A stretch of DNA of 38,239 nt. It comes from a virus. A program made the translations under genes and the position numbers. Positions 5,261 to 38,239 of this stretch are shown piece after piece. Each line of letters begins with the position of its first letter. Positions within the stretch are counted from its first letter, which is position 1. The DNA lies in the IMG/VR virus record IMGVR_UViG_3300029932_000004. One strand, written 5' to 3'. The notes beneath the pieces were generated by a model. It saw only the letters and a program-made list of their open reading frames with translations, was not told the DNA's origin and made no database searches.

Positions 5261-5911
5261 ATGATTCTCAATGACATTCAGATTGCAAAGCTGGCAAGGG
5301 ACGGGATGATCACGCCATTTGTCGGTCAGCAGGTGCGAGAGGATGAGAACGCGTATACATCATACAAGGTAATCAGCTATGGGCAATCGTCGTATGGGTA
5401 TGATATCAGGCTGGCGGATACGGGATTGCAGAGAATGGTTGATCCACTGATAGATCATGCCTCAATATGGTCAGATAGTTGGCGTGATACAGCAGAACCG
5501 CTTGTGCTGCCAACAGTCGACCCAAAAAGCTTTGATGCGACCAAATGTATGGCCAGTCTTTCTATGGAGCGAGATGAAACTGGCACGTTTTACACGCTCC
5601 CACCCCATGCCTATGCGCTGGGTGTCAGCATCGAGACATTTGATCTCCCCCGGAATATCCTTGGGATCTGCTATTGCAAATCCACCTATGCCAGGTGTGG
5701 CCTGATGGTCAACACTACTCCACTCGAACCCGGTTGGCGTGGTCAGTTGGTAATCGAGCTGGCCAACCTGACCGATCTACCAATGAAGGTCTACGCGGGG
5801 GAGGGTATCGCGCAGGTTGTTTTCTTTGAAGGCGACCAACCCTCGATCACCTATGCTGACAGGGCTGGGAAATACCAGGATCAGCGCGGCATTGTTACGG
5901 CGAGGATATGA
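5261..5911 (+). CDS. dcd: dCTP deaminase
   Basis: The motifs ISYGQSSYGYDIRL, VDPKSFD, CKSTYARCGLMVNTTPLEPGWRGQLVIELAN, GEGIAQVVFFE and YADRAGKYQDQRG match the bacterial Dcd family as I remember it. There seems to be an insertion of about 20 aa (MVDPLIDHASIWSDSWRDTAEPLVLPT) before the VDPK motif. Confidence 0.88.
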   Translation: MILNDIQIAKLARDGMITPFVGQQVREDENAYTSYKVISYGQSSYGYDIRLADTGLQRMVDPLIDHASIWSDSWRDTAEPLVLPTVDPKSFDATKCMASLSMERDETGTFYTLPPHAYALGVSIETFDLPRNILGICYCKSTYARCGLMVNTTPLEPGWRGQLVIELANLTDLPMKVYAGEGIAQVVFFEGDQPSITYADRAGKYQDQRGIVTARI

Positions 5912-8329: not shown

Positions 8330-8886
8330 CATACGAAGAATTGAGACTACTCTTTCCGCGGTCAAGCGCAAAGAGAATGAAGATCTGGGGAGAGCAGCTT
8401 GAGTACTACTGCTCGATCTTTGAAATTGACACGCCAGTTCGCAAAGCTGCATTTATTGCACAGATCGGCCACGAGTCAATGAACCTGATGCTGGTCAGTG
8501 AGCTATGGGGGCCAACCAGGCAACAGCAGAAATACGAACCGCCCCATCCACTCGCGGCCACGCTCGGCAATACTCAACCTGGCGATGGATTCAAATTTCG
8601 TGGCCGTGGTCTGATTCAGATTACTGGCCGCTCCAATTATGAGCAGGTCAGTCACGTTTTGGGCGATCAAGTCAACTTGCTAAAAAATCCGGATCTGCTC
8701 ACGACTCCTCAGTATGCGGTCAAGTCCGCTTGCTGGTGGTGGCAGTCTCGAGGCCTCAATCAAATTGCTGACGAGAACACCGAAGAGAGCTTTGAGAAGA
8801 TCACGCGCATCATCAATGGTGGCCTGACTGGTTGGGACGACAGACTCGACAGATGGATTCACGCGAAAAAAATATTACGTGCGTGA
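8326..8886 (+). CDS. Endolysin, glycoside hydrolase family 19 (chitinase-like)
   Basis: The motifs AAFIAQIGHESMNLMLVSE, GDGFKFRGRGLIQITGRSNY, AVKSACWWW and ITRIINGGLTGWDDR match the GH19 signature pattern. Confidence 0.88.
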   Translation: MTYEELRLLFPRSSAKRMKIWGEQLEYYCSIFEIDTPVRKAAFIAQIGHESMNLMLVSELWGPTRQQQKYEPPHPLAATLGNTQPGDGFKFRGRGLIQITGRSNYEQVSHVLGDQVNLLKNPDLLTTPQYAVKSACWWWQSRGLNQIADENTEESFEKITRIINGGLTGWDDRLDRWIHAKKILRA

Positions 8887-8926
8887 TAGTGTAGGGGGGT
8901 ATCATTGTGACGTTCCTTTCTTGGCT

Positions 8927-8957
8927 GGGGGAGACAGTGATGTCTCTCCCTTTTTTT
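8927..8957 (+). terminator. Rho-independent terminator
   Basis: GGGGGAGACA (8927..8936), loop GTGA, and TGTCTCTCCC (8941..8950) form a 10-bp stem with one G-U pair. A T7 run follows (8951..8957). Confidence 0.8.
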
Positions 8958-8971
8958 ATGGAGGATTGAAA

Positions 8972-9172
8972 ATGAACTGGAATGTGTGGATCAAAGGGCT
9001 GGTGGCGGCTATCGTTGGTGGCGTTGCAAACTCGACCACTATGATGATCGTCGACCCGGCAACGTTCAACATCTATGAGGGCGGCTCGAAGCTGGTGACC
9101 CTTGCCGTCACGTCTGCCGTATTCTCGGCAGCCTTCTACCTCGCCAAATCACCACTCCCGGAGAGCAACTAA
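8972..9172 (+). CDS. Holin-like small membrane protein
   Basis: This is ORF-track frame 8879..9172. ATG 8972 follows GGAGGA. The product is 66 aa with two hydrophobic helices (IKGLVAAIVGGVANSTTMMIV and LVTLAVTSAVFSAAFYLA). The call rests on position next to the endolysin. Confidence 0.55.
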   Translation: MNWNVWIKGLVAAIVGGVANSTTMMIVDPATFNIYEGGSKLVTLAVTSAVFSAAFYLAKSPLPESN

Positions 9173-9648
9173 TGCGAAATATTTTTCTTGCACTGATCGT
9201 CCTCATCGGTCTCTCGTCGGTTGCGTGCTCTGACAAGGGCAAGCAGTTTGCCGCATCAACTGACCGGATCGCCGGATATGTCGGCGTCGGTCTGATCATC
9301 GTCGACCAGCAGACCTCCACGGGTCAGATGTCGCCTGAAACTGGCGTGGCCATTGTCACGGCACTCCGCCAGGTGAATACCCTGAATGGCCAGCTTGTGA
9401 CCGAGGCCAAGAAGTTTATTGACGCTGACGGCAACCTAGCATTGACTGGAGATGGACAGCAAGACCTTCTCAACATCCTTGCCAGCTCCAACAACATCAT
9501 CAACACACTGGTCAATGATCCTCGAGTCCTGAACCTGTCCGAACCAAAACGAAACGAGATCATTGCCGTGGCAGCCAACCTGTCCGCAACCATCGCCAGC
9601 ATTGGCGAGTTAATCAAAACAACCAAGACCATCAAGGGGGGCAAATGA
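9172..9648 (+). CDS. Lipoprotein (lysis-cassette position)
   Basis: The N-terminus MRNIFLALIVLIGLSSVAC has a lipobox-like SVAC. The rest of the protein is hydrophilic. Confidence 0.6.
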   Translation: MRNIFLALIVLIGLSSVACSDKGKQFAASTDRIAGYVGVGLIIVDQQTSTGQMSPETGVAIVTALRQVNTLNGQLVTEAKKFIDADGNLALTGDGQQDLLNILASSNNIINTLVNDPRVLNLSEPKRNEIIAVAANLSATIASIGELIKTTKTIKGGK

Positions 9649-9827
9649 ACATTATTGACCTGCTCTCAACTCTTCCGTCCTTCCTTCTCCTGATCACCAA
9701 TGAGCTGATCAAAGAGTCTGCCCGTACCGGCAAGACTCCGGCGCAGCTCCTCGAGGATGCTGGCCTCAAGATCGATGCCAACGAGGAGAAGGCAGTCGAG
9801 CTGCTCGCCAAGCTCAAAGGGCAGTAG
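9645..9827 (+). CDS. Small protein with an N-terminal hydrophobic segment
   Basis: The start forms an ATGA overlap with the upstream stop. The N-terminus reads IIDLLSTLPSFLLLI. Confidence 0.5.
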   Translation: MNIIDLLSTLPSFLLLITNELIKESARTGKTPAQLLEDAGLKIDANEEKAVELLAKLKGQ

Positions 9828-9927
9828 ACTTCCCTACCCCGGCATACGGGCCAGCACCCTCGGGGGCGTATAGCCTCACGCCGGGGAACTGAGGGATACG
9901 CTGGCCCACCAACTATAGGCACAACCA

Positions 9928-10173
9928 ATGATCCCCGTGGAAGAGAGACAAATGGACAAGGACTATATCGACGTTACAGTATCGAGTATCATTGCGCTGG
10001 CCTTTGGCTGGTTGGTCAAGTCGTTTACATCCGCCAGTCGAAAAGAGGTTGACGAGATCCGGCAGGAGATGCGGCACTTTGTCACGACTCGATCATTCGA
10101 CAAGGAACTGCAGGGTATTCAAAACCGTCTTGATCGGATCGAGGACAAGATTGATAAGCTAGTTGACAAATAA
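9928..10173 (+). CDS. Type-II membrane protein with a coiled coil (i-spanin-like)
   Basis: The transmembrane segment VTVSSIIALAFGWLV is followed by a heptad-rich tail (EIRQEM...LQGIQNRLDRIEDKIDKLVDK). An alternative start is ATG 9952. Confidence 0.5.
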   Translation: MIPVEERQMDKDYIDVTVSSIIALAFGWLVKSFTSASRKEVDEIRQEMRHFVTTRSFDKELQGIQNRLDRIEDKIDKLVDK

Positions 10174-28527: not shown

Positions 28528-31500
28528 ATGCAGACAGTTTCACCGACACTCTATCAGATATTGTTATCGTCCGAGCGTGACCTGACGCCGGTTGACCTGT
28601 TCGAGTTTTACCCGCCGACAGTCACCGATCTGATACCGGCCAATGCCGAGCGCAGATTCGCGTCAACGTCGCTGGTCTGGTTTGGGTGGGAGTATCAGCA
28701 GCAGGCAATCAGTCGGTCAGACATCAGCCGGTATATGACCGAGAAATTCAACTCAGTCAATATCACGCTGTCAAACGTCGATAAGACGGTCAGTACCTGG
28801 TTGAACGGTATATCACTTGAGGGCTACCGGGTGCTGGTGCGTACCGTGAGCCGCAGATATTCGACTGATTCGCTCGTCCTCTTCGTTGGTCGGTGTGAGA
28901 AGCCGGGCGACATTGACAACGCGTCAGTGACGATCACGGCAAAGCAAGACCTCGGAACGATTGAAAATGAATTACCCTTCGGCAAGTATGACCTGAAGTG
29001 CCCATTGAAATTTAAGGGCACAGACTGCCTTGCCGGGCAGACTCTTGCACAGAAGCCGCAAGCGTACAAAGAGGCATCGACGTGTAATAAGTCGTGGTCT
29101 CAGTGCGTGGGCTATGGGAACCAGAAAGCATTTCAAGGGTTCAGGTACAAGGCAGTCATTGGTTCGTTCAAGGTAAACACACGACCCGCCGGGATGGGTG
29201 CGATCTTCGGCTCACGACGGGCGACGAAGCAATGGACCAGCACAGACAATTTTCCGATAGGCCAGTCAATCCCGCTTGGACTTGGGCGGACTCAGATCGA
29301 TCTCCAGCCCGTGCTTTATGCCGACACGGGCGAATATCTTTATGGGCATTTTGTAGCAGGTGAAGGGCCGATTACTGAATTTGCGGACGTGCGCAATACG
29401 ACGGCAGGATGGGCCACAACATTCCAGACACTTTACAAGCACAACGGCCAATATGGGTACAATGCCGATCAGGAGACGGACAGCGCGCTGCTTGGATTGG
29501 AATACTACAGCAGCCGGGCATATGTCGAGGCGACGATCAAAGGCAACAACCCAGACGCGGGTGATCCCGCTCCAACGCTGGCGGCGTTGGTGCTCTGGAA
29601 CAAGATCCCGTCGATAGGATATGCCGGTTTCGATACGACTGATTTTTCCGACAACCCGGTTGAGCACGTGCGATATCTGCTTACCGATCCTCGAGCCCTC
29701 AACTATCCGACCACGTGGATTGATGACGAGGTGAGCTATCAGACGGCGGAGTATTGCAATGAGCCACTACAGGATGATTCAGGTTGTGAAGAGTTCTGGT
29801 ATGACCAGAATCAGGGGACGGCGGGGACTGACTGGAAAAGATACCGATCAACTGGTGTGCTCGATTCGGCTTATTACAAATATCAACTGACCCCGACTGA
29901 CGCCAACAGACCGCAGAAGATCGCCGCAGAATATAACGCATATGATCCGGAGAACCCTCCAGAGAATCCAATCCCGACGACGTATTACCGGAAACGCTAC
30001 ACATCCAACTGGCATTTGAAAGAGCCGGTCAAGGTTGCGGATTTCTTGTTCAAGCATCTGCTTCCCTCTTTCCGTGGATACCTGGTGACGGGTGCTGATG
30101 GCAAGCTGCAGATCAAGAGTGAGCGTCCGGCGATTACTTCATATTTGCGTGGCAATGCAAATTATGAGCAAACTTCCATAAGCGTGCAAGACGTCACCAC
30201 GTTGTTAAAGCTGCAGCTCAATCAGCTTTATGTGGTGGTTGGTGCGGGAACCGATACGAGCGAAACCAAGCGTGTCAGATCAATTATTTACAATGACTTG
30301 GGAAACTATTTCACGCTTAGTGTCACACAGGGTGCAACGCGATATTCGCCCACGTTTGTTGGAGGATCTTCAAATCTTTTCACGTCAGCTCCAGCATGGA
30401 ATTATCTGACCATTCAGTCTGGTGGCTTGCCTGTTATTGTCAACGTCAACGGCGAGACGATCACGGCCAGCGCAATTGACGCAACAGGCGCAACGGCGAC
30501 AGATGGGGCAATTGCTGGCGAGATCGCAGCAAAGATCAATGCTCACGCCACTTTAAGCCAGTATATTGAAGCTGTCTGGAATAAAGACAATCCAACCATT
30601 GTGTTGATGCGAAGCAAAACTGGATATGTGTATTTTGACACAGGTTTAGTATATGCGCATCAGGATGGCGAAGCGGTTGTCCACGTTAACGGCGTGTTCG
30701 GGGATCAAGCGTTTGGTGTCCTCACTCGGTCAAACATAATCCGGGATTCGTTCAAGTGGCCACTCGGACAACGGCAGACGTCCTACAATCAATTTGCCAT
30801 CACCTACACTGACAGCACGCAAGACTTTCAGCAGACCGAGCTACGTGAGAATGACTATGATCATCAGGACAAGGTCAACAAAATCAACAAGCTCGAGATC
30901 TCTGGCGCGTGCGTCGACAACTATCATCAGGCCGATCGACTCGTTCAGGCGGCACGGTACAAATACCGAGACGGTGATTACTTCTGCTCGTTCCAGGCGG
31001 CTGGATCCGCTCTACTCCTCGAGGAGGGAGACATCATTTGCGTCAATCACGCGAATATGTCCGGGCGTCGCAATGAACTATTCAGGATCGAGGAGCTGAG
31101 AGTCACCCAGGATCACCGCGTCAATATCGTGGCGCGGTTGTATGCAGAGCAACAGTTCCCATCTGCTGCGACGGTTCGGACGGTGGGGCTCAATACGGGG
31201 TCAGTATGGATTGCTGGCACTCCTCCAGCCGTCACAGGTGTCACAGTCACCTATTCGACGATTGACTCCGGGCGGGTCAATTTTGACTTTGGCGATTTTG
31301 TTGGAGGCCAGACGGCTCGAGTCGAAATTAAGAGGCCGGGTGATGCTGACTGGATCCCGACAGGATACGAGGTGACACCGGACAGTTTGGGACGTGGAGC
31401 GGCAGAGCTGCCGGGGTTGAAGGTCAATACATTGATCCGGATCACGCCTATCAGTTCGACAGGGGTCGAGGGTACGCCCTCACAGGTCACAGTGACCAGC

Positions 31501-33435
31501 CCTCTCTATCAGTGGCCCGGATCCTACCCGTCAGCGAGTGGATACGTTCTCTCCTCAACAACGGCAGGCGTGTTGTCCTGGGTGGCGCAGTCTGGCGGTG
31601 GTGGCACTCCCGGCGGGTCGACAACGCAAGTCCAGTTCAACGATGCTGGGTCATTTGGTGGCGACGCTGGGTTGACGTATGACAAGACGACTGATGCGTT
31701 GACGGTGGTTGGCCCAACTCAGATGTCGGAGCTGCGACTGAAAGAGACTGGTGGCGGCTCTGATTATGTCGGGTTCAAGGCTCCGGCCAGCGTAACGAGT
31801 AATAAGATCTGGACGTTGCCGGACGGTGATGGGAACAATGGCCAGGTATTGACTACCAACGGTTCAGGTACCCTTCAATGGCGCAATGGGCGTGATACGT
31901 TGACGGGAGATCGGACTTATTACGTCGGATTTGCTTTAACAAATAATTGCACTTTTACAAATGGATCTGCGGCTATTGGCTGCACGTCGCACGGGTTATC
32001 CTTGGATGATCCGATTATTTTTACAAGCACAAGTAGCTTGCCAACCAACTTTATCGCTGGAGCAGTATATTATGTAAGAAGAGTGACAGATGCGAATACG
32101 ATTGAAGTCTCGCTAACTGTTGGCGGCACTGCTATTAGTGCGGGGTCTGCTGGCTCAGGTACGCACACGGCACGCACTGGTAACGACTCTAACGCAGGGT
32201 TTCAATATTCCAATTATCAAAACAATACGCAGGCGGCTAATAGTCGCAGCATAGCATTACTGACTATTCAGAAGGCTATTGATTTAGTATCAGCAATTGA
32301 TTTGGCAGGATACGCTGTCACGATTCAGCTTGCACCAGGCAGATATACTGACTTAGTTCAATTGAAAAGCTATGTTGGAGTCGGGCCAGTCACAATCAAA
32401 GGTGATACTGCAGCAGCGACCAGCTATAAGTTGGAGCCTTATGCTTTGGGATTAGCAATGGCCAACGCAAACAATGATTCAATTGAATTTGCAAATCATG
32501 GGCTTCTTGCTGGGACTCCAATCAGTGTTGTGATGTATCAACCCAGACCGTCAGGCTTTGACGTGAGCCTCAACACGACATATTACACATACAATGTGAC
32601 CACTCATTCCTTTCAACTTGTCACGAGTCCGACCAGTACAACTCCAGTGACATGGACGGCCAGCCCAAATTCTTCTGGTACAACAGTGTCCTCAATATCA
32701 AGCACAACGATAACCACAAGTAGCGGTCATGGCTTAGTCGTCAATCAGGCGGTAATGTTCACGGCCACGTCTTTTCCAACCAATATCAATGGAACAACGA
32801 CTTATTACGTCGCATCTGCGCCCAGTGGTACAACATTCACAATATCAACGACTCCAGGTGGCGCAGCTATCACCCCGGGAACAAGTTTTACTTCGCTCAA
32901 GGTGACGCCATCAGTGCTTTATGTCTCCGCTTGGACTGTTACGTCACCAACTGCGCCAACAGGAAAATACGTGCTTCAAGGACTGAATCCGATTGCTCCA
33001 ACTAGTGGTATCAGCATGCGACCAACAAGATCTGTGCTAGATATAGATAATTGCAATTTTGGTTCAGCAGCAGCATCATTTAATCACGTATTTGCAGAAG
33101 TCAACTGTATGGTCACGTTCAAGAATACAACGACCATCTCAGGAGGCGCATCAACGTGTGACGCTTTTTTGGCCACTGATGGCGCATACTTAACAAGCCG
33201 ACTTGGTACATTTAATGTTTCTGCTTCCATTGTTTTGTCAAATTTTTTTAGATGTCTTAGAACGGGTATTATTCTTGCAGATCAAACAACATATACAAAT
33301 GCGGCGAATGTCACTGCTGGCGCAAAATATAATGTATCAAGTAATGGGGTCATACAAGGGCCATCCGCATCTATACCTGGGCCTACTGCTGGCACATCGG
33401 GAACCACAGGCGGTCAATTCATTGATCTTGCGTAA
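28528..33435 (+). CDS. Tail tip / host-specificity protein: a gpL-like N-terminus fused to a gpJ-like central fibre, with an FN3-like domain and a C-terminal receptor-binding module
   Basis: The protein is 1635 aa. The N-terminus (VDLFEFYP...LVWFGWEYQQQAISRS...NITLSNVD...CPLKFKGTDC) is lambda-gpL-like. The middle (FAITYTD...LFRIEELRV) is gpJ-like. It also carries LPDGDGNNGQVLTTNGSGTLQW (a fibre motif) and TIQKAIDL...IQLAPGRYTD (beta-helix-like). Confidence 0.8.
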   Translation: MQTVSPTLYQILLSSERDLTPVDLFEFYPPTVTDLIPANAERRFASTSLVWFGWEYQQQAISRSDISRYMTEKFNSVNITLSNVDKTVSTWLNGISLEGYRVLVRTVSRRYSTDSLVLFVGRCEKPGDIDNASVTITAKQDLGTIENELPFGKYDLKCPLKFKGTDCLAGQTLAQKPQAYKEASTCNKSWSQCVGYGNQKAFQGFRYKAVIGSFKVNTRPAGMGAIFGSRRATKQWTSTDNFPIGQSIPLGLGRTQIDLQPVLYADTGEYLYGHFVAGEGPITEFADVRNTTAGWATTFQTLYKHNGQYGYNADQETDSALLGLEYYSSRAYVEATIKGNNPDAGDPAPTLAALVLWNKIPSIGYAGFDTTDFSDNPVEHVRYLLTDPRALNYPTTWIDDEVSYQTAEYCNEPLQDDSGCEEFWYDQNQGTAGTDWKRYRSTGVLDSAYYKYQLTPTDANRPQKIAAEYNAYDPENPPENPIPTTYYRKRYTSNWHLKEPVKVADFLFKHLLPSFRGYLVTGADGKLQIKSERPAITSYLRGNANYEQTSISVQDVTTLLKLQLNQLYVVVGAGTDTSETKRVRSIIYNDLGNYFTLSVTQGATRYSPTFVGGSSNLFTSAPAWNYLTIQSGGLPVIVNVNGETITASAIDATGATATDGAIAGEIAAKINAHATLSQYIEAVWNKDNPTIVLMRSKTGYVYFDTGLVYAHQDGEAVVHVNGVFGDQAFGVLTRSNIIRDSFKWPLGQRQTSYNQFAITYTDSTQDFQQTELRENDYDHQDKVNKINKLEISGACVDNYHQADRLVQAARYKYRDGDYFCSFQAAGSALLLEEGDIICVNHANMSGRRNELFRIEELRVTQDHRVNIVARLYAEQQFPSAATVRTVGLNTGSVWIAGTPPAVTGVTVTYSTIDSGRVNFDFGDFVGGQTARVEIKRPGDADWIPTGYEVTPDSLGRGAAELPGLKVNTLIRITPISSTGVEGTPSQVTVTSPLYQWPGSYPSASGYVLSSTTAGVLSWVAQSGGGGTPGGSTTQVQFNDAGSFGGDAGLTYDKTTDALTVVGPTQMSELRLKETGGGSDYVGFKAPASVTSNKIWTLPDGDGNNGQVLTTNGSGTLQWRNGRDTLTGDRTYYVGFALTNNCTFTNGSAAIGCTSHGLSLDDPIIFTSTSSLPTNFIAGAVYYVRRVTDANTIEVSLTVGGTAISAGSAGSGTHTARTGNDSNAGFQYSNYQNNTQAANSRSIALLTIQKAIDLVSAIDLAGYAVTIQLAPGRYTDLVQLKSYVGVGPVTIKGDTAAATSYKLEPYALGLAMANANNDSIEFANHGLLAGTPISVVMYQPRPSGFDVSLNTTYYTYNVTTHSFQLVTSPTSTTPVTWTASPNSSGTTVSSISSTTITTSSGHGLVVNQAVMFTATSFPTNINGTTTYYVASAPSGTTFTISTTPGGAAITPGTSFTSLKVTPSVLYVSAWTVTSPTAPTGKYVLQGLNPIAPTSGISMRPTRSVLDIDNCNFGSAAASFNHVFAEVNCMVTFKNTTTISGGASTCDAFLATDGAYLTSRLGTFNVSASIVLSNFFRCLRTGIILADQTTYTNAANVTAGAKYNVSSNGVIQGPSASIPGPTAGTSGTTGGQFIDLA

Positions 33436-33695
33436 TGAACAATCAATTAGAAATACTAGATATTCGTCGAACCAGTGAAACCACATGTACTGTGACCATT
33501 CGCGTGACGCATAACTACACGACATTTGTCTACGAGGTTCCGGGCGTCCCTTACGCGTATGACGAGCGTGAGAAATATATCGAAACGAATCGAGCCGCAA
33601 TAGTTGAGGCCGCTATCAATGCCAATCAGGCCGCATATTCAGAGCGCATTGCTGCATTGGAGCTGGTGACTGATATGCTCATGGATGAGGTGTAA
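33435..33695 (+). CDS. Hypothetical protein (downstream of the fibre gene)
   Basis: The start forms a TAATG junction. The ORF is 86 aa. Confidence 0.5.
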   Translation: MNNQLEILDIRRTSETTCTVTIRVTHNYTTFVYEVPGVPYAYDEREKYIETNRAAIVEAAINANQAAYSERIAALELVTDMLMDEV

Positions 33696-33926
33696 ATGGA
33701 CATCCAAGAAACTCCCATATATCGCCGCACGCTGGTTAGATGGCAGGCCGGGAAGATCACGATCAAAGAGGTTGAGCTGCTGGTCAAGACCAGCTGGTTG
33801 ACCAGAGACCAGGCAGACGAGATCTATACGTATCCCCGCGCACTGACCCCACTGGTTGAGGCTGACCCCTTCTCACCAGAGCGGGTTTATACTATTCAGG
33901 AGGAGTTGACCAATGGCGCACGATAA
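33696..33926 (+). CDS. Hypothetical protein
   Basis: GAGGTG lies upstream. The ORF is 76 aa. Confidence 0.5.
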   Translation: MDIQETPIYRRTLVRWQAGKITIKEVELLVKTSWLTRDQADEIYTYPRALTPLVEADPFSPERVYTIQEELTNGAR

Positions 33927-34353
33927 CACTCTATACGCAGATTCGCGGACGATCGCATTATCTCCCCTGACCAAGCATGGGCTGCACTTGTGGAAGCTCG
34001 TGGTGGGTGACACTTGGCACATCAACCGGACGTATACGGGACTGCAGAGCGGAACGACTATATCCAAGTGCTATTGGACGGTGAAGGCGGATCCGGCGGC
34101 GGCTGATGGGGCGGCGATCTTCCAGGTGTCTGTGACGTCGACATCGACCGCGGCAGGGCAGATCGTAGACGACACGAGCAACGGCGGACATATCGAGGTG
34201 TCAGTGATCGCAACCAAAACTCAGACGGCATTGATCACACCCGGCCAGACGTACCATTACGATATTCAGGGGATCGACAGCAACAATCAGGTCTATACGT
34301 TTGAGGTGGGAACGCTTGAAGCGCAGCAGGGCGTGACGGCGGCGACTACTTAG
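33913..34353 (+). CDS. Hypothetical beta-rich protein (last rightward gene)
   Basis: AGGAGGAG lies upstream. The ORF is 146 aa. Confidence 0.55.
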   Translation: MAHDNTLYADSRTIALSPLTKHGLHLWKLVVGDTWHINRTYTGLQSGTTISKCYWTVKADPAAADGAAIFQVSVTSTSTAAGQIVDDTSNGGHIEVSVIATKTQTALITPGQTYHYDIQGIDSNNQVYTFEVGTLEAQQGVTAATT

Positions 34354-34591
34354 GCTTGATTAGGCCACGCTCCATCAGCGTGGTGTAGGATCTGATGCGG
34401 GTCTTCGTCAGCAAGGCCTTGGGGCTGGTCGACTGCTTCAGCTGCCGCTCTCGCTGTTTGCGAGCATGAGCAGCGCGACACCTGCCGCAACGCTGAGTCC
34501 CGCCGTCCGTGTCACGCAATTGGCAATCAATACAAATGGCCGCCGCGATGAGTGATTCTCGCAGCGGCCTTTTAGTTTTGCGAACCGTCAA
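34346..34591 (-). CDS. Small basic zinc-ribbon protein (last leftward gene)
   Basis: The TTG start (34591..34589) follows AGGAGAG (revcomp of 34596..34602). The protein has CIDC-x11-CGRC and an Arg/Lys-rich tail. Confidence 0.55.
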   Translation of the reverse strand: MTVRKTKRPLRESLIAAAICIDCQLRDTDGGTQRCGRCRAAHARKQRERQLKQSTSPKALLTKTRIRSYTTLMERGLIKPK

Positions 34592-34600
34592 TGCACTCTC

Positions 34601-34726
34601 CTAGGGTATGCTTGGCGCAAATGCCAAGTAAAAGCCGCTCGCCGTGATCACGATGGCGGCGATGATGTAAAGCGTCGAGCCGCGAAAAATATCAGTTTCC
34701 CTTTTTCCATTGCTCCTCCTTATCAA
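34601..34726 (-). CDS. Micro-ORF encoding a single transmembrane helix (start unresolved)
   Basis: The frame reads ...TLYIIAAIVITASGFYLAFAPSIP and ends at a stop (34603..34601) inside the next gene's SD. The only in-frame start is TTG 34726, which has no SD. A strong SD plus ATG at 34710 lies in the +1-offset frame, upstream of an A5 run. Confidence 0.3.
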   Translation of the reverse strand: MIRRSNGKRETDIFRGSTLYIIAAIVITASGFYLAFAPSIP

Positions 34727-34749
34727 TTTCGTGATGTCACGAAATTGAT
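34722..34749. repeat. 28-bp palindrome ATCAATTTCGTGA-TG-TCACGAAATTGAT
   Basis: The two 13-bp arms are perfectly complementary and the centre is 2 nt. The palindrome lies between two micro-ORFs of the leftward operon. Confidence 0.9.
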
Positions 34750-34823
34750 CATTCGTCACCATCGAGACCAAACGCCATTATCAGGACGACTATCAGGCCA
34801 ATTACGCCAAGTATAAAGCTCAT
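34749..34823 (-). CDS. 24-aa hydrophobic micro-peptide
   Basis: ATG 34823..34821 follows GGGAGGTGGAGA and forms an ATGA overlap with the upstream stop. The product is MSFILGVIGLIVVLIMAFGLDGDE. Confidence 0.5.
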   Translation of the reverse strand: MSFILGVIGLIVVLIMAFGLDGDE

Positions 34824-35119
34824 TCTCCACCTCCCTCAATCTTGTCTAGCAGGGCGTCAATCTCCGGCACGATGGCTTTTGACTCGCATTCGCGGCAAGA
34901 CTTATCAATGTGATTGCGAGTTTTGTAAAGCAGTTCAAGCATTTCAGATGCGGCAATCATCAGGGAAGCGTAATAATTACGCTCTTTGGGAGTGTCGCCG
35001 GGAAGGTGGCAATGACGTGCTGAGCAGCAGCAAATTTCAAGAAAGCGATTGCTATCTGGGTGACTGTCTGAGTAACCTATATCACGTCCTTTTCGAAGCC
35101 CGTCAATGTTCAGTTTCAT
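34820..35119 (-). CDS. Cys/His-rich hypothetical protein
   Basis: The ATG follows GGGAGGTGGAG and forms an ATGA overlap with the upstream gene. The 99-aa product carries EICCCSARHCH and CRECES. Confidence 0.6.
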   Translation of the reverse strand: MKLNIDGLRKGRDIGYSDSHPDSNRFLEICCCSARHCHLPGDTPKERNYYASLMIAASEMLELLYKTRNHIDKSCRECESKAIVPEIDALLDKIEGGGE

Positions 35120-35661
35120 TGCTCCACCTCCCTCTTGTGGTCTGGATGCCGCTGGTAATAGGCATCAACGAATTTGGCGCGTTCCCGGTTCATCTCCTCG
35201 AGGGTACAGGGAGCCTCAGCAAGCGTCTGTGGTCGAGGTTTCGGCCACGTCTCACCACGTCGGACGATAATGTCTTGACAGTGATTGATCAACGTGATGA
35301 TCCGGTTGTGCTCGTCCTGATCTGCTATTGATGCTTCTGTGCCCTGCGGGGCTGGTGCTGGTGATGACTGCTCCTTTGGCCGGGAACAGGCCGAGAGCAT
35401 AAAGATCACGTAACAGAGAGCGATGATCAACAGGTTGGTGATGTTCTGGCGCGGGAATCTATACTTGCCGAGCAGCTGGAAACCAGCCCACAGGCCGGGC
35501 AACCAGACGATGACGTGTGCGACCTCCTTCTGTGTCTGTGAAGTGAATCCGCTGGTCGCGAAGATCCAGGCAGCAACCGCCAGAATACCCGCAATCAGGA
35601 CGGTCGACGCCCATGCTTTATTTGCTTCTCTCCACGCTTCTGCTTTTTCTTGATCGTTCAT
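35116..35661 (-). CDS. Three-pass membrane protein whose third helix ends in a lipobox-like LSAC, followed by a Pro/Ser linker
   Basis: This is ORF-track frame 35116..35748. I moved the start to ATG 35661, which follows AAGGA; the upstream 29 codons are the TATTTCGT repeat array. The transmembrane segments are VLIAGILAVAAWIFA, VIVWLPGLWAGFQLL and LLIIALCYVIFMLSAC. Confidence 0.6.
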   Translation of the reverse strand: MNDQEKAEAWREANKAWASTVLIAGILAVAAWIFATSGFTSQTQKEVAHVIVWLPGLWAGFQLLGKYRFPRQNITNLLIIALCYVIFMLSACSRPKEQSSPAPAPQGTEASIADQDEHNRIITLINHCQDIIVRRGETWPKPRPQTLAEAPCTLEEMNRERAKFVDAYYQRHPDHKREVEQ

Positions 35662-35670
35662 TGTGATGTC

Positions 35671-35720
35671 CTTTCGTTTATTTCGTTTATTTCGTGTTCT
35701 ATTTCGTGTTTTATTTCTTG
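35671..35720. repeat. Tandem TATTTCGT(G) repeat array
   Basis: Exact TATTTCGT copies start at 35679, 35688 and 35700. Degenerate copies lie at 35671..35677 and 35712..35719. The array fills the intergenic space between two leftward genes. Confidence 0.85.
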
Positions 35721-36280
35721 TATGGATGCCAGGGATTGCAGTCGGCATTGGTGCGACTCTCGACTACCTGGCGCAACCAATGGCGCATTGATGATCTGGT
35801 CTGGAGGTTGCCGCTCCACAAGAATTGCCTGACCGCCTCGTGAAGGGTGATATCAGGCACGTCTCCGACTTTGGCATCTGGGAAATAGGCCAAGATCTTG
35901 AGCCGCTTGCTCTCGTCCAGTTTGAACCGGACATAGATCGAATATTGGACAGCCGCGACCACAGCCTGTGCCTGTCGATCCGGATTGCCTGACGGCCACT
36001 CGGATCGAACAAACTCGATTGCTGGCCACGCCTGAGGCCATCCGTAGGTGGTATGGTGGATGAACACCAAGCGGCCAGCCGGGTCGGACTTCATCAGCGT
36101 CTCTGGGTGATAGAGACAGATCGACGAGTCAGGATCCGGCTTCGTTGGGTCCAGCCTGATCACGTCGACGCCAAGCGGCGTCTGTGACTGGCCGATGATC
36201 CCACACGCCACGAGAGCCATTCCAATCCATAGAGCGGCCAGAATCAGCCGTCCCGTCTCTGCTCTGTTCAATGTGTGCAT
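35711..36280 (-). CDS. Lipoprotein, function unknown
   Basis: The N-terminus MHTLNRAETGRLILAALWIGMALVAC has a canonical L-V-A-C lipobox. The mature part of about 160 aa has no motif I recognise. Confidence 0.65.
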   Translation of the reverse strand: MHTLNRAETGRLILAALWIGMALVACGIIGQSQTPLGVDVIRLDPTKPDPDSSICLYHPETLMKSDPAGRLVFIHHTTYGWPQAWPAIEFVRSEWPSGNPDRQAQAVVAAVQYSIYVRFKLDESKRLKILAYFPDAKVGDVPDITLHEAVRQFLWSGNLQTRSSMRHWLRQVVESRTNADCNPWHPYKK

Positions 36281-36297
36281 TTTGTTCTCCGTGTTAT

Positions 36298-36324
36298 GCC
36301 GCCGAGTCTCCCCGGCGGCTGGTT
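36298..36324 (-). repeat. 27-nt intercistronic hairpin element, copy 1
   Basis: The sequence is gccgccgagtctccccggcggctggtt, with stem GCCGCCG/CGGCGGC. It lies between the Gp157-like stop and the lipoprotein start. Confidence 0.8.
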
Positions 36325-36334
36325 CTTGATAACG

Positions 36335-36862
36335 CTACTTGATGCGCAGATGCGTTCCGCGCTCCTCGATCCGGCATCCCGGTACATCCTGACCTGACTC
36401 CAGATCCGTTCGGATTGCGTCAACGTCAAGGCGTATCATCCGACGGTGATACTGCTCCGGGGCTGTAGCCGCATCGTGCCGCCAGGCCTCCGGGATGACC
36501 AGCGGCGACTTCCCGCCGTTCTTGGCGATGGTCAGCCGATGCAGTGGCGTCTCGATCTTGGTAACACCCTGCTCGAGCATAAAGTTGTGCAAGGCTGTCT
36601 TGAGGCGTTTGATCGTGTTCTCGTCCGTGTCGACCAAGGCCCCGAGTCTGGCGAGCTCTTCAGTTCGCGCATTCGCCCTTGCTGTGACTGTCGCGATCAG
36701 CCGGCAGTAGTTGTCGATCTTCTGGTCGCGCTCTTCGCCAAGCTCCTTGAACCACGACTCAAGGGCTGATCCCTGCTCGTCGTCGCTGATCTCGCCACCT
36801 GCCTCAGTCAGCATATCGGCCAGCGCGTTCAGGTCTTCTGTGATACGGAATAATGTTCTCAT
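36335..36862 (-). CDS. Siphovirus Gp157-like protein
   Basis: The N-terminus (ITEDLNALADMLTEAGGEISDD...LESWFKEL...KIDNYCRLI), the C-terminus (...GCRIEERGTHLRIK) and the adjacency to an annealing protein fit the Sipho_Gp157 family as I recall it. Confidence 0.55.
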   Translation of the reverse strand: MRTLFRITEDLNALADMLTEAGGEISDDEQGSALESWFKELGEERDQKIDNYCRLIATVTARANARTEELARLGALVDTDENTIKRLKTALHNFMLEQGVTKIETPLHRLTIAKNGGKSPLVIPEAWRHDAATAPEQYHRRMIRLDVDAIRTDLESGQDVPGCRIEERGTHLRIK

Positions 36863-36882
36863 TGCGTCCTTTCTGTGATAGA

Positions 36883-36909
36883 GCCGCCAAGTCTCCCCGG
36901 CGGCTGGTT
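36883..36909 (-). repeat. 27-nt intercistronic hairpin element, copy 2
   Basis: The sequence is gccgccaagtctccccggcggctggtt, matching copy 1 at 26 of 27 positions. It occupies the same position relative to the flanking stop and start. Confidence 0.8.
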
Positions 36910-36916
36910 GTGAGTG

Positions 36917-37669
36917 TTACGCCTGATTCGTTTGTGCTTCCTTCGCCGCGTCCTGCTCCTCGAGCTTGGTATTCAGCCGGGTGATGACCGTTTCCATTTG
37001 GCTGGTGGTCAGGGTCAGCAGATCTTTCGGCTCGAGGGTCATATCGGATCGGCGCGTGATGTTGCGGATCGCCGTGGCCAACTTGTCGTCGTCAATCCCG
37101 TGGCCGTTGAGTGCGTCAAGGATATGGCCCAGGTACGTCACCTGCTCCTCAGTGGCCAGCTCCTCGACGGGTGCCACGTGTGCGCCGGGGATGGTCTCGG
37201 TCTCAGTCTCATCGAGCATCCCCAGACCGCAGATGGAGAGAGTCACCCGCCGCTTGGCCTTGGTCTCGGCCTTCATCAGAGCATTGGCCAGAGCGTCGCC
37301 TTTCAGCGATCCGACCGTCACGGCTCCAATGGACTCATCCGTCCGACCATCGGGAGTGGTGGCCCGTGCAATGACCATGTACACGTCGCCCACCTGCTCA
37401 CGACTGACGATCGTGACGGATACGCCACGAAGGCTCCGCAGCTGATCGGTCGCGTCCTTCCGGGCATACAAGGTGAGCTTGCCGTTCAGGGTGATATATT
37501 CGAAGGGTTTCGTCAGTGGATTCAGGCCGATCGACTTGCAGACGGCTCCGTAGTAGTTCGCGCGTTCAACGGGTGAGAGTTCCTTGAGGTCGCCCTTGAC
37601 GACGACGTTCTCGACGATTGCGCCAGCGTCCGGCGCGGTGGTTGCGAGTGCATTCTGTGGTGTTGCCAT
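36917..37669 (-). CDS. Single-strand annealing protein, Bet/Red-beta (RecT superfamily)-like
   Basis: The motifs YYGAVCKSIGLNPLTKPFEYI and NALMKAETKAKRRVTLSICGLGMLDETE parallel lambda Bet (QYGLNPWTKEIYAF and RMLRHKAMIQCARLAFGFAGIYDKDEAE) as I remember it. Confidence 0.65.
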   Translation of the reverse strand: MATPQNALATTAPDAGAIVENVVVKGDLKELSPVERANYYGAVCKSIGLNPLTKPFEYITLNGKLTLYARKDATDQLRSLRGVSVTIVSREQVGDVYMVIARATTPDGRTDESIGAVTVGSLKGDALANALMKAETKAKRRVTLSICGLGMLDETETETIPGAHVAPVEELATEEQVTYLGHILDALNGHGIDDDKLATAIRNITRRSDMTLEPKDLLTLTTSQMETVITRLNTKLEEQDAAKEAQTNQA

Positions 37670-37703
37670 TGTGATGTCTCCTGATTGAATTTCCGACGTG
37701 CTG

Positions 37704-37732
37704 ATTATCTACAGATCAATGATAATTGTCAA
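37704..37732 (-). promoter_or_regulatory. sigma70-type promoter for the recombination/accessory genes
   Basis: On the minus strand: TTGACA (revcomp of 37727..37732), a 17-nt spacer, and GATAAT (revcomp of 37704..37709). Confidence 0.65.
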
Positions 37733-37739
37733 TTGGTAA

Positions 37740-37961
37740 TTATCTCTGTCGATCAAAATATGCGCGTGTTTGCCGGTCGTCCTCGTCCTGAGCACGAATC
37801 ACCTGCTCGGCGCAACCGGGGCACAGTTCGCCCTCCTCAGTCTCGAGCCAATTCAGGCGGCTCATCAGTGAGCGGATCTCCTGCTCCGCGTCCTCGGTGG
37901 TCAGGATGTTCCGCTCCTCATACAGGCCGCAGTCGTGGCACTCGAGTTCAATTGTCACCAT
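37740..37961 (-). CDS. Small zinc-ribbon protein
   Basis: This is a 73-aa ORF-track entry. AGGAGG lies 6 nt upstream of the ATG. The pattern is CHDC-x35-CPGC. Confidence 0.65.
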   Translation of the reverse strand: MVTIELECHDCGLYEERNILTTEDAEQEIRSLMSRLNWLETEEGELCPGCAEQVIRAQDEDDRQTRAYFDRQR

Positions 37962-38094
37962 TGGTCTCCTCCTTCGCCTTGCAATGCAGGCAGATCGTAC
38001 GGTGTGGGAAGTGGCAAATCTTGGCGCAGTCCTGACAGATTGGATAGTCTGTCAGGTTGTCGCCGCCGCAACGTGGGCAATCAGCGTCGTTCAT
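37948..38094 (-). CDS. Small zinc-ribbon protein (48 aa, below the ORF-track cut-off)
   Basis: ATG 38094..38092 follows GAGGAG. The product is MNDADCPRCGGDNLTDYPICQDCAKICHFPHRTICLHCKAKEETNGDN. Its end overlaps the next start by 14 nt. Confidence 0.6.
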   Translation of the reverse strand: MNDADCPRCGGDNLTDYPICQDCAKICHFPHRTICLHCKAKEETNGDN

Positions 38095-38237
38095 TTTGAC
38101 TCCTCTTCTGTCTGGCAATCCCAGCAGATTGGATCGTCGTCCAGGTGCAACTCATTGCACTGGGTGCAACGCTTCGCGCCAATCGCCGCGAGATATTCGA
38201 GCTCAGTTTCAGCATCCATCACAAACATCAGACCCAT
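38091..38237 (-). CDS. Small zinc-ribbon protein (48 aa) spanning the circular junction
   Basis: The ATG at 38237..38235 is equivalent to 75..73. Its SD, AGGAGGTGAT, lies at 78..87 on the other side of the junction. The product is MGLMFVMDAETELEYLAAIGAKRCTQCNELHLDDDPICWDCQTEEESK. The stop forms an ATGA overlap with the next gene. Confidence 0.6.
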   Translation of the reverse strand: MGLMFVMDAETELEYLAAIGAKRCTQCNELHLDDDPICWDCQTEEESK

Positions 38238-38239
38238 AT
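38163..38239. repeat. Terminal direct repeat, copy 2 (identical to 1..77)
   Basis: These 77 nt are an exact copy of the window start. Confidence 0.95.

What the first reader, a model, noticed from the sequence alone, without database searches (positions are those of the whole stretch)
34346..36280. Uncharacterised envelope-directed cassette at the distal end of the early leftward operon
Six tightly coupled minus-strand genes lie downstream of the Bet-like and Gp157-like recombination genes. None has a recognisable family. They are:
- a lipoprotein with a canonical LVAC lipobox (36280..35711);
- a three-pass membrane protein whose third helix ends in a second lipobox-like LSAC, followed by a Pro/Ser-rich linker and a ~95-aa soluble domain (35661..35116);
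- a Cys/His-rich 99-aa protein (35119..34820);
- a 24-aa hydrophobic peptide (34823..34749);
- a second single-helix micro-ORF (34726..34601);
- a basic zinc-ribbon protein (34591..34346).

Junctions are ATGA overlaps or SD-in-stop arrangements, which suggests co-translation as one unit. The cassette is punctuated by a shared DNA motif, described in the separate finding on ATTTCGTG sites. Early-expressed phage lipoprotein and membrane-protein sets are the classic architecture of superinfection exclusion or receptor masking (established examples are T5 Llp, lambdoid Cor and P22 SieA). This particular combination, with micro-peptides and metal-binding partners, is not one I can assign to any described system.
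Basis: partly seen in the sequence, partly recalled or inferred. Interest (0 to 1): 0.72.

Follow-up and report, generated by a model that had tools for sequence, protein, structure and literature searches.

The report
Mosaic phage early-operon envelope genes
The six ORFs are not one machine but a recombination patchwork at the end of a phage early operon, made of two conserved but uncharacterised envelope-protein units, an inserted common cytoplasmic gene, a dead gene-fusion scar and a zinc-ribbon gene; a role in blocking superinfection is plausible but untested.

Summary
All six ORFs exist at the stated coordinates. A, B, D and F are real genes, with dN/dS of 0.05-0.15 against close relatives. 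They are not a co-conserved six-gene cassette.

- **A** belongs to a small orphan family of exported proteins with two invariant Cys. Its LVAC lipobox occurs only in near-identical relatives.
- **B** has 12 full-length homologues. All keep an internal lipoprotein-type signal (L-S-[AG]-C-S) at the end of the third hydrophobic helix. Its N-terminal part is homologous to a ~99-aa three-helix protein that follows A in other relatives.
- **D** (24 aa) directly follows B in five contig types.
- **C** lies between B and D, flanked by the only two copies of a GGAGGTGGAG linker in the window. It is a cytoplasmic protein whose relatives carry Pfam PF27050.
- **E** is a scar. A thymidylate-kinase start (SD, ATG, nine codons) is joined out of frame, at TTTTTCG, to the last 28 codons of the three-helix gene.
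- **F** is a conserved terminal zinc-ribbon gene.

The phage's lysis genes lie elsewhere (8326-10173). No homology to Llp/Cor, SieA, spanins or defence proteins was found, and the host is unknown. Superinfection exclusion remains an inference.

The parts
35711..36280 (-). Gene A (189 aa). Export signal with an LVAC lipobox at residues 23-26 and a GQS|QT signal-peptidase-I-like site at 30-34. This is followed by a ~150-aa extracytoplasmic domain with two family-invariant Cys (C55, C181).
   Evidence: ORF, hydropathy, lipobox. (relatives at 45-96% identity). (35 clusters among 1.84 billion representatives; C55 and C181 invariant). (dN/dS 0.06 against L011). (lipobox-like pattern in 3 of 35; AxA-Q-type site in 23 of 35).
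35670..35710 (-). A-B spacer. Two copies of the 12-nt unit AACACGAAATA[GA] (35710-35687), then a degenerate tail ACGAAATAAACGAAAGG that ends in B's SD.
   Evidence: Copy number varies among close relatives (L011 one, L014 two, L013 three) and the repeat is absent from divergent ones. Motif enrichment.
35116..35661 (-). Gene B (181 aa). Helix 1 covers about residues 18-39, a weaker helix 2 about 47-65, then a cytoplasmic-type loop KYRFPRQN. Helix 3 (74-92) ends in the lipobox LSAC|S (DNA 35397-35386). A Pro/Ser linker follows, then a helical domain (residues ~110-181) with conserved C128 and C152 and the tail YYxRHPDHKRE.
   Evidence: 12 full-length homologues at 61-93% identity; L89, S90, [AG]91, C92 and S93 conserved in all. 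(AF2 pLDDT 71). (hhalign 94.7%, E 6e-8: residues 1-70 homologous to the three-helix family). (dN/dS 0.08-0.13). (N-termini of lipoprotein HMMs align to residues 77-120)..
35116..35134 (-). Linker GAGGGAGGTGGAGCAATGA at the B/C junction. It holds the last codons of B, the SD, and the ATGA overlap.
   Evidence: This and the C/D linker are the only two GGAGGTGGAG in the whole window. The same linker joins B directly to D in L013.
34820..35119 (-). Gene C (99 aa). A cytoplasmic Cys/His-rich protein inserted between B and D. Its C-terminal half (…MIAASEMLELLYKTRNHIDKSCRECESKAIVPEIDALLDKIEGGGE) is a widespread phage module.
   Evidence: 31 homologues, 11 carrying PF27050. (alignment: invariant C-terminal half, variable N-terminal half). 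(phrog_1273, E 0.0015). (the gene sits at other positions in L020 and L052). (absent between B and D in L008, L011, L013, L014 and L018).
34820..34837 (-). Linker GAGGGAGGTGGAGAATGA at the C/D junction, the second copy of the portable gene-boundary sequence.
   Evidence: In L051 two genes, each ending …EGGGE*, sit between B and D. A 36-nt match to the same boundary occurs elsewhere in L004.
34749..34823 (-). Gene D (24 aa). A single hydrophobic helix with an acidic tail, and the usual partner of B.
   Evidence: directly after B by ATGA overlap in L008, L011, L013, L014 and L018; absent in L015. (L051). (dN/dS 0.05-0.15 over four sequences).
34722..34749 (-). Perfect palindrome ATCAATTTCGTGA-CA-TCACGAAATTGAT, with no T-run after it.
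   Evidence: As RNA it forms a 12-bp hairpin of -20.7 kcal/mol (z = -5.3). It is conserved between D and tmk in L013. Not called as a terminator.
34684..34721 (-). Remnant of a thymidylate kinase gene start: SD AAGGAGG, ATG at 34710 and nine codons (MEKGKLIFF). The frame then runs into unrelated sequence and stops after 20 codons (34648).
   Evidence: aligns with L013 up to the start of its 210-aa Thymidylate_kin gene, MSKGKLIFFEGVDG…. (Pfam for that gene)..
34601..34689 (-).
   Evidence: full 99-aa genes in L004-L007 end with the same sequence. (DNA homology to L005 and L006 resumes at 34687-34689). It is out of frame with the only SD-ATG. No SD precedes the in-frame TTG at 34726 or the ATG at 34762.
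34346..34591 (-). Gene F (81 aa). A basic CxxC…CxxC zinc-ribbon protein with a TTG start, the last gene of the operon. It converges on the plus-strand 146-aa gene that follows the tail-fibre gene (33913-34353).
   Evidence: homologues end the operon in L002-L007. (dN/dS about 0.1 in close pairs). (shares its N-terminal ribbon with the double-ribbon F' of L011, L013, L014 and L018; 37% over 43 aa).

Best explanation
The region is the variable accessory tail of a phage early leftward operon. It was assembled by recombination and is not a single system.

**Shown**
- The conserved backbone in relatives is A, then a ~99-aa three-helix membrane gene, then a zinc-ribbon gene.
- In this phage the three-helix gene was replaced by a module that carries a paralogous gene B, its 24-aa partner D, a palindrome and a tmk gene.
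- An illegitimate crossover at TTTTTCG deleted nearly all of tmk and the 5' two-thirds of the old three-helix gene. That left the E scar.
- C was later inserted between B and D at a portable SD-containing linker.

**Inferred**
- A is exported by Sec and folds with a disulfide. Here it may be lipid-anchored, or cleaved by signal peptidase I.
- B inserts with its C-terminus outside the cytoplasmic membrane. Its third helix then acts as a lipoprotein signal peptide. Lgt and LspA would lipidate and cut at C92, releasing a ~90-aa disulfide-stapled helical lipoprotein and leaving a small membrane fragment that associates with D.

**Conjecture (about 0.3-0.35 on its own)**
- These early-made envelope proteins act independently to change the infected cell's envelope. 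The most likely purpose is to block DNA entry or adsorption by later-arriving related phages, in the manner of P22 SieA, T4 Imm/Sp or T5 Llp.

C and F act in the cytoplasm and are not part of any envelope device.
For: **Mosaic history**
- blastn against L005 and L006 matches gene A (window 36126-35720) and then resumes only at 34687-34689, running to about 33912-33945.
- L013 matches window 35710-35116 (B) and 34835-34680 (D, palindrome, SD and the first tmk codons), then diverges.
- The linker occurs exactly twice in the window, at both ends of C.
- Five other contig types have B directly followed by D. L051 has two linker-ended genes between them.

**Real genes**
- dN/dS is 0.05-0.15 for A, B, D and F in close pairs.

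**B**
- The lipobox is kept in 13 of 13 sequences down to 61% identity. C152 is invariant and C128 nearly so.
- The +3 loop before helix 3 and the hydropathy profile fit a C-out topology.
- N-terminal signal regions of the EexN, PsbQ and YhcN lipoprotein models align to residues 77-120.
- The N-terminal 70 residues are homologous to the three-helix family.

**A**
- All 35 aligned family sequences have an N-terminal hydrophobic segment. C55 and C181 are invariant.

**Not lysis**
- A GH19 endolysin, a holin-like protein, a lipoprotein and a TM-plus-coiled-coil protein lie at 8326-10173.

**Analogy**
- P22 SieA is a 162/164-aa inner-membrane protein with three predicted TM helices that blocks DNA injection (PMC10883804).
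- T5 Llp is a small disulfide-bonded lipoprotein on the periplasmic side of the outer membrane that blocks infection through FhuA (PMC9586334).
Against: - No sequence, profile or fold similarity links A, B or D to any exclusion protein.
- The A model is unusable (pLDDT 53).
- The host is unknown, so the envelope type is inferred only from the lysis cassette.
- Early timing is inferred from position in the operon, not measured.
- B helix 2 is only marginally hydrophobic.
- Processing of an internal lipobox is unproven. B could stay intact.
- D is missing next to B in L015, and A is followed by neither B nor a three-helix gene in L020 and L053. Partnerships are therefore loose.
- No integrase or clear lysogeny module was found among the ORFs scanned. 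The prophage-type rationale for exclusion genes does not obviously apply.
Confidence: 0.5

Rival explanations
1. First reader's view. All six ORFs form one co-translated envelope system, with micro-peptides and metal-binding partners, dedicated to superinfection exclusion or receptor masking.
For: Tight junctions and overlaps in the window. Same strand and same operon.
Against: - The set is not co-conserved, and each relative has a different combination.
- E is a fusion scar, out of frame with its only SD-ATG.
- C is an insertion bounded by linker repeats, occurs elsewhere in other phages, and is cytoplasmic.
- ATGA overlaps are a property of the portable linkers, not of this gene set.
Confidence: 0.04
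2. The membrane and lipoprotein genes are lysis or lysis-timing functions. For example, B's lipoprotein part would be an o-spanin, A a periplasmic antiholin like T4 RI, and D a holin-like peptide.
For: - B's mature part begins with a Pro/Ser-rich stretch, as in Rz1-type o-spanins.
- There is a very weak phrog_1267 'Rz-like spanin' hit (E 0.22) over the signal and lipobox.
- Small hydrophobic peptides are common in lysis cassettes.
Against: - A separate lysis cassette exists 25 kb away on the other strand: endolysin, holin-like protein, lipoprotein and a TM-plus-coiled-coil protein.
- The genes sit in the early operon, behind the recombination genes.
- No i-spanin partner is adjacent.
- The PHROG hit covers only the signal peptide.
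Confidence: 0.07
3. A and B/D are envelope-directed host-takeover or fitness factors unrelated to exclusion. Possibilities include inhibition of a host transporter, of cell-wall or division machinery, or of an envelope-stress or defence sensor, or prevention of progeny loss on debris.
For: The evidence is the same as for the best explanation: exported, conserved, early position, and no homology. No clear lysogeny genes were found among the ORFs scanned, so benefits other than prophage immunity are just as natural.
Against: Nothing specific argues against it. It differs from the best explanation only in the target. Early membrane and lipoprotein sets of known function in phages are most often exclusion proteins (general knowledge).
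Confidence: 0.27
4. B's LSAC is not a processing site. B stays as one three-helix inner-membrane protein with a periplasmic C-terminal domain, similar in architecture to SieA. The conserved Cys serves packing or a disulfide.
For: - The homologous ~99-aa three-helix proteins function without any lipobox.
- Internal lipoprotein signals are rarely documented, and two literature searches found nothing relevant.
- TM3 holds a second invariant Cys, C83.
Against: - L-S-[AG]-C-S is kept in 13 of 13 sequences although neighbouring positions vary.
- A positive n-region (YRFPRQN), a hydrophobic core of about 15 residues, and a Ser at +2 followed by a Pro/Ser linker form a textbook lipoprotein signal.
- Several lipoprotein HMM N-termini align there.
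Confidence: 0.4

Closest known systems
P22 SieA (inner-membrane superinfection exclusion protein)
   Same: Similar size and plan to B: 162/164 aa with three predicted TM helices in the inner membrane, and it acts alone (PMC10883804). It is a phage accessory gene.
   Different: - No sequence or profile similarity (PHROGs and Pfam negative).
- SieA has no lipobox and is expressed from a prophage.
- B sits in the early operon of a phage with no clear lysogeny genes among the ORFs scanned.
T5 Llp / T1-phi80 Cor small lipoproteins
   Same: A small phage lipoprotein with an intramolecular disulfide that acts from the periplasmic side (PMC9586334). B's predicted mature part (~90 aa, C128/C152) and A (LVAC; C55/C181) fit that description in outline.
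   Different: - No homology.
- Llp has 61 residues and a normal N-terminal signal. B's signal is internal, behind two helices.
- A's lipobox is not conserved in its family.
- llp and cor lie next to receptor-binding genes on the same strand. Here the genes are in the convergent early operon.
T4 Imm and Sp (own knowledge, not tested)
   Same: An early-expressed pair: a small polytopic membrane protein that blocks DNA entry, plus a membrane-anchored periplasmic protein, in a virulent phage. This is the closest analogy to a three-helix protein or B together with A.
   Different: No similarity was detected in PHROGs. The T4 genes are not adjacent to each other. The function here is untested.
Two-component spanins (Rz/Rz1 type)
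   Same: A lipoprotein with a Pro-rich start, next to membrane proteins.
   Different: - Not located in the lysis cassette.
- No i-spanin partner is present.
- The only profile hit has E 0.22 and covers just the signal peptide.
Pfam PF27050 (Phage_P22_Y8K6) small phage proteins
   Same: C shares its conserved C-terminal half with proteins that carry this domain.
   Different: C itself does not reach any Pfam score. Its N-terminal Cys/His-rich half is specific to a small subgroup. The family's function is unknown.
NCBIfam NF058595 'lipo-invert putative C-terminal anchoring domain'
   Same: Nine of 13 B-family members give a weak match over helix 2, the loop, helix 3, the lipobox and the linker. 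This hints at a described class with a non-N-terminal lipobox.
   Different: Scores are 14-20 bits against a 37-bit cut-off. The hits may be driven by hydrophobic composition. No paper describing the model was found.

Membership tests
Llp/Cor superinfection-exclusion lipoproteins | N-terminal lipoprotein signal peptide with a lipobox Cys | tested here: inconclusive
   A has LVAC at residues 23-26, but only the window and near-identical relatives carry it. Only 3 of 35 family sequences match a lipobox pattern at all. B has a lipobox conserved in all 13 sequences, but it is internal, after two helices.
Llp/Cor superinfection-exclusion lipoproteins | Sequence or profile similarity to Llp or Cor | tested here: not met
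   No Pfam, PHROG, NCBIfam or PDB-sequence hit, and no Foldseek hit below E 0.1.
Llp/Cor superinfection-exclusion lipoproteins | Gene adjacent to the receptor-binding or tail-fibre gene | tested here: inconclusive
   The operon ends 0.9 kb from the end of the 1635-aa tail-fibre gene (28528-33435). However, it is on the opposite strand, as a consequence of convergent operons.
Llp/Cor superinfection-exclusion lipoproteins | Blocks infection through the phage's own receptor | not testable with these tools
   Needs expression in the host, which is unknown, followed by plating and adsorption assays.
P22 SieA family | ~160-aa inner-membrane protein with three TM helices | tested here: met
   B is 181 aa with helices at about 18-39, 47-65 (weak) and 74-92. 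This is architecture only.
P22 SieA family | Sequence or profile similarity to SieA | tested here: not met
   No PHROG or Pfam hit at E <= 1 apart from noise. tblastn against 50,697 phage genomes found nothing.
Two-component spanins | Located in the lysis cassette with the endolysin and holin | tested here: not met
   The endolysin, holin-like protein, lipoprotein and TM-plus-coiled-coil protein are at 8326-10173 on the plus strand.
Two-component spanins | Paired i-spanin (N-terminal TM plus periplasmic coiled coil) overlapping or adjacent to the o-spanin | tested here: not met
   No such ORF lies next to A or B. phrog_1267 gives E 0.22 over the signal peptide only.
Pfam PF27050 (gene C) | Match to the family profile above the gathering score | tested here: inconclusive
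   C itself has no Pfam hit at E <= 1. Eleven of 31 homologues found with C (those carrying the domain score E 1.6e-20 to 7.7e-10) carry PF27050, and they share C's invariant C-terminal half.
NCBIfam NF058595 lipo-invert anchoring domain (gene B) | Score above the curated cut-off (37 bits) | tested here: not met
   Best score is 20 bits (E 4e-4 to 7e-4) in 9 of 13 members.
Known anti-phage defence proteins (PADLOC) | Profile match | tested here: not met
   No hits for A-F, the three-helix protein or F' at E <= 0.1.
Thymidylate kinase (ORF E region) | Intact P-loop kinase ORF | tested here: not met
   Only the SD, the ATG and nine codons remain (34721-34684). The intact gene is present in L013, L008, L015 and L020.

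The most novel reading that the evidence does not exclude
B is a self-splitting precursor. One ORF would yield both a small integral membrane fragment (two helices plus the spent signal) and a lipid-anchored periplasmic protein, because its third transmembrane helix is a functional internal Lgt/LspA lipoprotein signal. This design evolved from a plain three-helix phage membrane protein by gaining a lipobox and a ~90-aa domain. With the 24-aa peptide D it would form a new type of phage envelope effector, possibly an exclusion device spanning the inner membrane and periplasm. A would define a second orphan family of exported phage effectors.
Probability: 0.3. Interest if true: 0.6.

Novelty: new variant of a known kind. 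Interest (0 to 1): 0.4.

Why it matters
- **Better experimental targets.** The work replaces an attractive but incorrect six-gene-system reading with defined units. These are two orphan, selection-constrained envelope protein families (A; B with D) that can be cloned separately and screened for exclusion or envelope phenotypes.
- **An unusual architecture.** If B's internal lipoprotein signal is processed, a phage would make a membrane protein and a lipoprotein from one ORF. That would also be a natural test case for how Lgt and LspA handle non-N-terminal signals.
- **Mechanisms of mosaicism.** The locus gives a base-level example of two routes to phage mosaicism. One is insertion of genes at a portable SD-containing linker. 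The other is illegitimate crossover at a 7-nt microhomology.
- **A caution on micro-ORFs.** A plausible hydrophobic micro-ORF can be a gene-fusion scar.

Tried and rejected
- **Family libraries.** Pfam, PHROGs, PADLOC and NCBIfam on all six products gave nothing above threshold.
- **Cultured phages.** blastn of 33400-38239 and tblastn of A and B against 50,697 phage genomes found no match. TerL is at most 35% identical to any isolate.
- **Structure.** The AF2 model of A has pLDDT 53, so its Foldseek hits are meaningless (all E > 1). The B model has pLDDT 71, but no PDB or BFVD hit falls below E 0.1. The weak SemiSWEET-like matches reflect a generic three-helix bundle.
- **PDB sequence profiles.** Searches for the A, B and C families found nothing.
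- **EexN entry-exclusion lipoprotein lead.** Rejected, because the match covers only the signal peptide and lipobox.
- **Host identification.** The A profile is absent from 185,579 species genomes. Bet-like relatives occur in MAGs of many phyla, and none of those 30 loci carries A, B, C, D or F.
- **B and C in IMG/VR.** No loci found.
- **Promoter and terminator scan of 34200-36450.** Nothing beyond chance.
- **Literature.** Searches for internal lipoboxes and for 'lipo-invert' found nothing usable.
- **Lysis-cassette reading.** Considered and rejected.

Full report
**Setting**

The window is a circularly permuted phage genome of about 38 kb. A Logan contig (L001, SRR850456) bridges the end of the window to its start. 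It shows a leftward operon running from a divergent control region through small zinc-ribbon genes, a 250-aa Bet-like gene and a Gp157-family gene into the finding.

The plus strand encodes:
- a replication initiator, helicase, dCTP deaminase and HNH endonuclease;
- a lysis cassette, made of a GH19 endolysin (8326-8886), a two-helix holin-like protein (8879-9172), a lipoprotein (9172-9648) and a TM-plus-coiled-coil protein (9928-10173);
- terminase and structural genes, ending with a 1635-aa fibre gene and three small genes. The last of these (33913-34353) converges on the finding's last gene.

No cultured phage is close. blastn finds nothing, and TerL is at most 35% identical to any isolate.

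**The observation**

All six ORFs are present at the stated coordinates.
- **A** carries a textbook LVAC lipobox at residues 23-26.
- **B** has strong hydrophobic helices at about 21-39 and 74-92 and a weaker one at 47-65. LSAC sits at 89-92, and a +3 loop (KYRFPRQN) precedes helix 3.
- **D** is a single helix.
- **F** is basic (21 K+R in 81 residues) with CxxC…CxxC.

The B/C and C/D junctions are ATGA overlaps. E's stop lies in F's SD. Against close relatives, A, B, D and F show dN/dS of 0.05-0.15, so they are genuine genes. This includes the 24-codon D, compared across four sequences.

**Synteny breaks the six-gene idea**

A has relatives of 49-53% identity in six IMG/VR contigs. In those contigs the order is A, then a three-helix membrane protein of about 80-100 aa, sometimes a micro-peptide, then an F homologue, then the convergent tail gene.

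B has 12 full-length homologues. Their contigs show these orders:
- A-B-D-F' (L011, L014, L018);
- B-D-palindrome-tmk-F' (L013);
- Zn-protein-B-D-101aa-tmk (L008);
- 89aa-B-136aa-PF27050-tmk, with no D (L015);
- Zn-protein-B-C-68aa-D (L051).

In a 36.8-kb relative (L020), C lies upstream of the Bet-like gene and an A-family gene is followed directly by tmk. A remote A-family member (P0030) is followed by a DNA methyltransferase.

- B is directly followed by D in five contig types, with one or two linker-ended genes inserted between them in the window and L051, and D absent in L015.
- Within the closer clade, A is followed by a member of the three-helix/B family.
- A zinc-ribbon gene ends the operon.

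**Base-level history**

Against L005 and L006, DNA homology covers gene A (window 36126-35720). It then resumes only at 34687-34689 and runs through F into the tail gene. Against L013, homology covers B (35710-35116, 90%) and 34835-34680. The second stretch contains D, the palindrome, the SD AAGGAGG, the ATG and the first codons of a thymidylate kinase gene (MSKGKLIFF… in L013, MEKGKLIFF in the window). After that the two sequences diverge.

The switch between the two parents lies in TTTTTCG (34689-34683). Downstream the window reads CGCGGCTCGACGC…, as in the three-helix gene of L006. The only SD-ATG (34710) reads nine tmk codons and then 11 out-of-frame codons. The hydrophobic frame (FRGSTLYIIAAIVITASGFYLAFAPSIP) is the orphaned last helix of the three-helix gene, with no SD before its possible TTG or ATG starts.

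C is bounded by GAGGGAGGTGGAGCAATGA (35134-35116) and GAGGGAGGTGGAGAATGA (34837-34820). These hold the only two GGAGGTGGAG in the window. The same linker joins B directly to D in L013. In L051, two genes that each end …EGGGE* sit between B and D. These linkers encode the C-terminal GGGE, the next gene's SD and the ATGA overlap. That explains why the junctions look co-translated.

**What the proteins are**

*A.* A profile search of 1.84 billion representatives finds only 35 clusters. All are 150-240 aa and have an N-terminal hydrophobic segment. An [AGS]-x-[AGS]-Q site follows in 23 of 35, including the window's GQS-QT. Six have a cytoplasmic CxCxxC motif ahead of the anchor. C55 and C181 are invariant. 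A lipobox pattern is matched by only 3 of 35 aligned sequences, and A's LVAC is confined to near-identical relatives, so lipid anchoring is a local variation. No Pfam or PDB relative exists, and the AF2 model is unusable.

*B.* Its first 70 residues are homologous to the three-helix family (hhalign 94.7%, E 6e-8). B is thus a paralogue of the gene it displaced. All 13 sequences keep L-S-[AG]-C-S, C152 and the tail YYxRHPDHKRE; C128 is kept in 12 of 13. AF2 (pLDDT 71) predicts three membrane helices, a disordered Pro/Ser linker and a helical hairpin domain. Signal regions of several lipoprotein HMMs (EexN, PsbQ, YhcN/YlaJ) align to residues 77-120. A sub-threshold match to NCBIfam NF058595 ('lipo-invert C-terminal anchoring domain') recurs in 9 of 13 members. 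I read helix 3 as an internal lipoprotein signal peptide. This is an inference.

*C.* It has 31 homologues, of which 11 carry PF27050. The shared part is the invariant C-terminal half, and the N-terminal halves vary. It is a common cytoplasmic phage protein of unknown function.

*F.* It shares its first zinc ribbon with the double-ribbon F'. It is most likely a nucleic-acid-binding protein.

**Mechanism**

The mosaic history is shown directly by the sequence comparisons. Export of A and a C-terminus-out topology for B follow from sequence rules: positive-inside, a lipobox, and conserved Cys pairs that suggest periplasmic disulfides. The phage's lysis cassette implies a diderm host.

The functional reading is analogy only. 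Under it, early envelope proteins block later-arriving phages, as do P22 SieA (three-TM inner-membrane protein), T5 Llp (disulfide-bonded lipoprotein on the periplasmic side of the outer membrane) or T4 Imm/Sp (own knowledge). No homology supports it, and no clear lysogeny genes were found among the ORFs scanned. A different envelope target is nearly as likely.

**Verdict**

The region holds two orphan envelope-protein units worth testing, one with an unusual internal lipoprotein signal. The six-gene cassette is an artefact of mosaic assembly. Interest is moderate.

Noticed in passing
window 35670-35710 (-); L011 1508-1536, L013 1-45, L014 400-448: The A-B spacer holds a 12-nt tandem unit, AACACGAAATA[GA]. 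Its copy number differs among otherwise ~85-90% identical relatives (one to three copies). It is absent from divergent B contexts. The function is unknown; it could be a protein-binding site or a product of slippage.
   Followed up: partly
window 34722-34749: A perfect 13+13 palindrome carries the same CACGAAAT 8-mer in both arms. As RNA it forms a 12-bp hairpin (-20.7 kcal/mol, z = -5.3) with no U-tract after it. It is conserved after gene D in L013. It could be an operator, a processing site or a stabiliser.
   Followed up: partly
window 35116-35134 and 34820-34837; L051 and L052: A portable gene-boundary linker, GAGGGAGGTGGAG(C)AATGA, encodes …GGGE*, an SD and an ATGA overlap. Several small early genes in related phages end in …EGGGE/EGGGK. 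The linker appears to act as a recombination joint for inserting single genes.
   Followed up: partly
window 8326-10173 (+): A lysis cassette: a GH19 endolysin, a two-helix holin-like protein, a 158-aa lipoprotein (…LSSVAC), a 60-aa ORF and an 81-aa TM-plus-coiled-coil protein. The lipoprotein is much larger than usual o-spanins, and the spanin assignment is unclear.
   Followed up: partly
window 37740-38237 (-) and relatives L002-L004: There is a run of small Cys-rich zinc-ribbon genes at the start of the early operon (for example …CPRCGGDNLTDYPICQDCAKICHFPHRTICLHC…). Similar genes precede B in L008 and L051. With F and F', this early operon is unusually rich in zinc-ribbon proteins.
   Followed up: no
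window 36917-37669 (-); L021-L050: The 250-aa 'Bet-like' protein has no Pfam hit. It has 54-74% identical relatives in MAG contigs from many phyla, including Gemmatimonadales, Propionibacteriaceae, Alphaproteobacteria, Anaerolineae and Leptolyngbya. It is a very widely spread recombinase-like family and gives no usable host signal.
   Followed up: partly
L013 706-1338, L008 2762-3391, L015 1651-2292, L020 7905-8462: A thymidylate kinase gene is a frequent occupant of the same variable region in relatives but has been deleted in this phage. The window still carries a dCTP deaminase (5261-5911). Nucleotide-metabolism content therefore varies within the group.
   Followed up: no
Alignment A4 (A family), N-termini of P0016, P0020, P0021, P0029, P0039 and P0045: Six of 35 A-family sequences have a cytoplasmic CxCxxC motif and an Arg-rich stretch ahead of the membrane anchor. 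The window's A instead has a short lipoprotein-type signal. The N-terminal anchoring module seems to be swapped independently of the exported domain.
   Followed up: partly
window 35748-35662 (-): The longest ORF for B starts at an upstream ATG (35748) and would read through the tandem repeat as …TRNKTRNRTRNKRNKRK…. The same holds in L014. Homologues with short spacers show that this extension is not part of the protein. Gene callers could over-extend B.
   Followed up: yes
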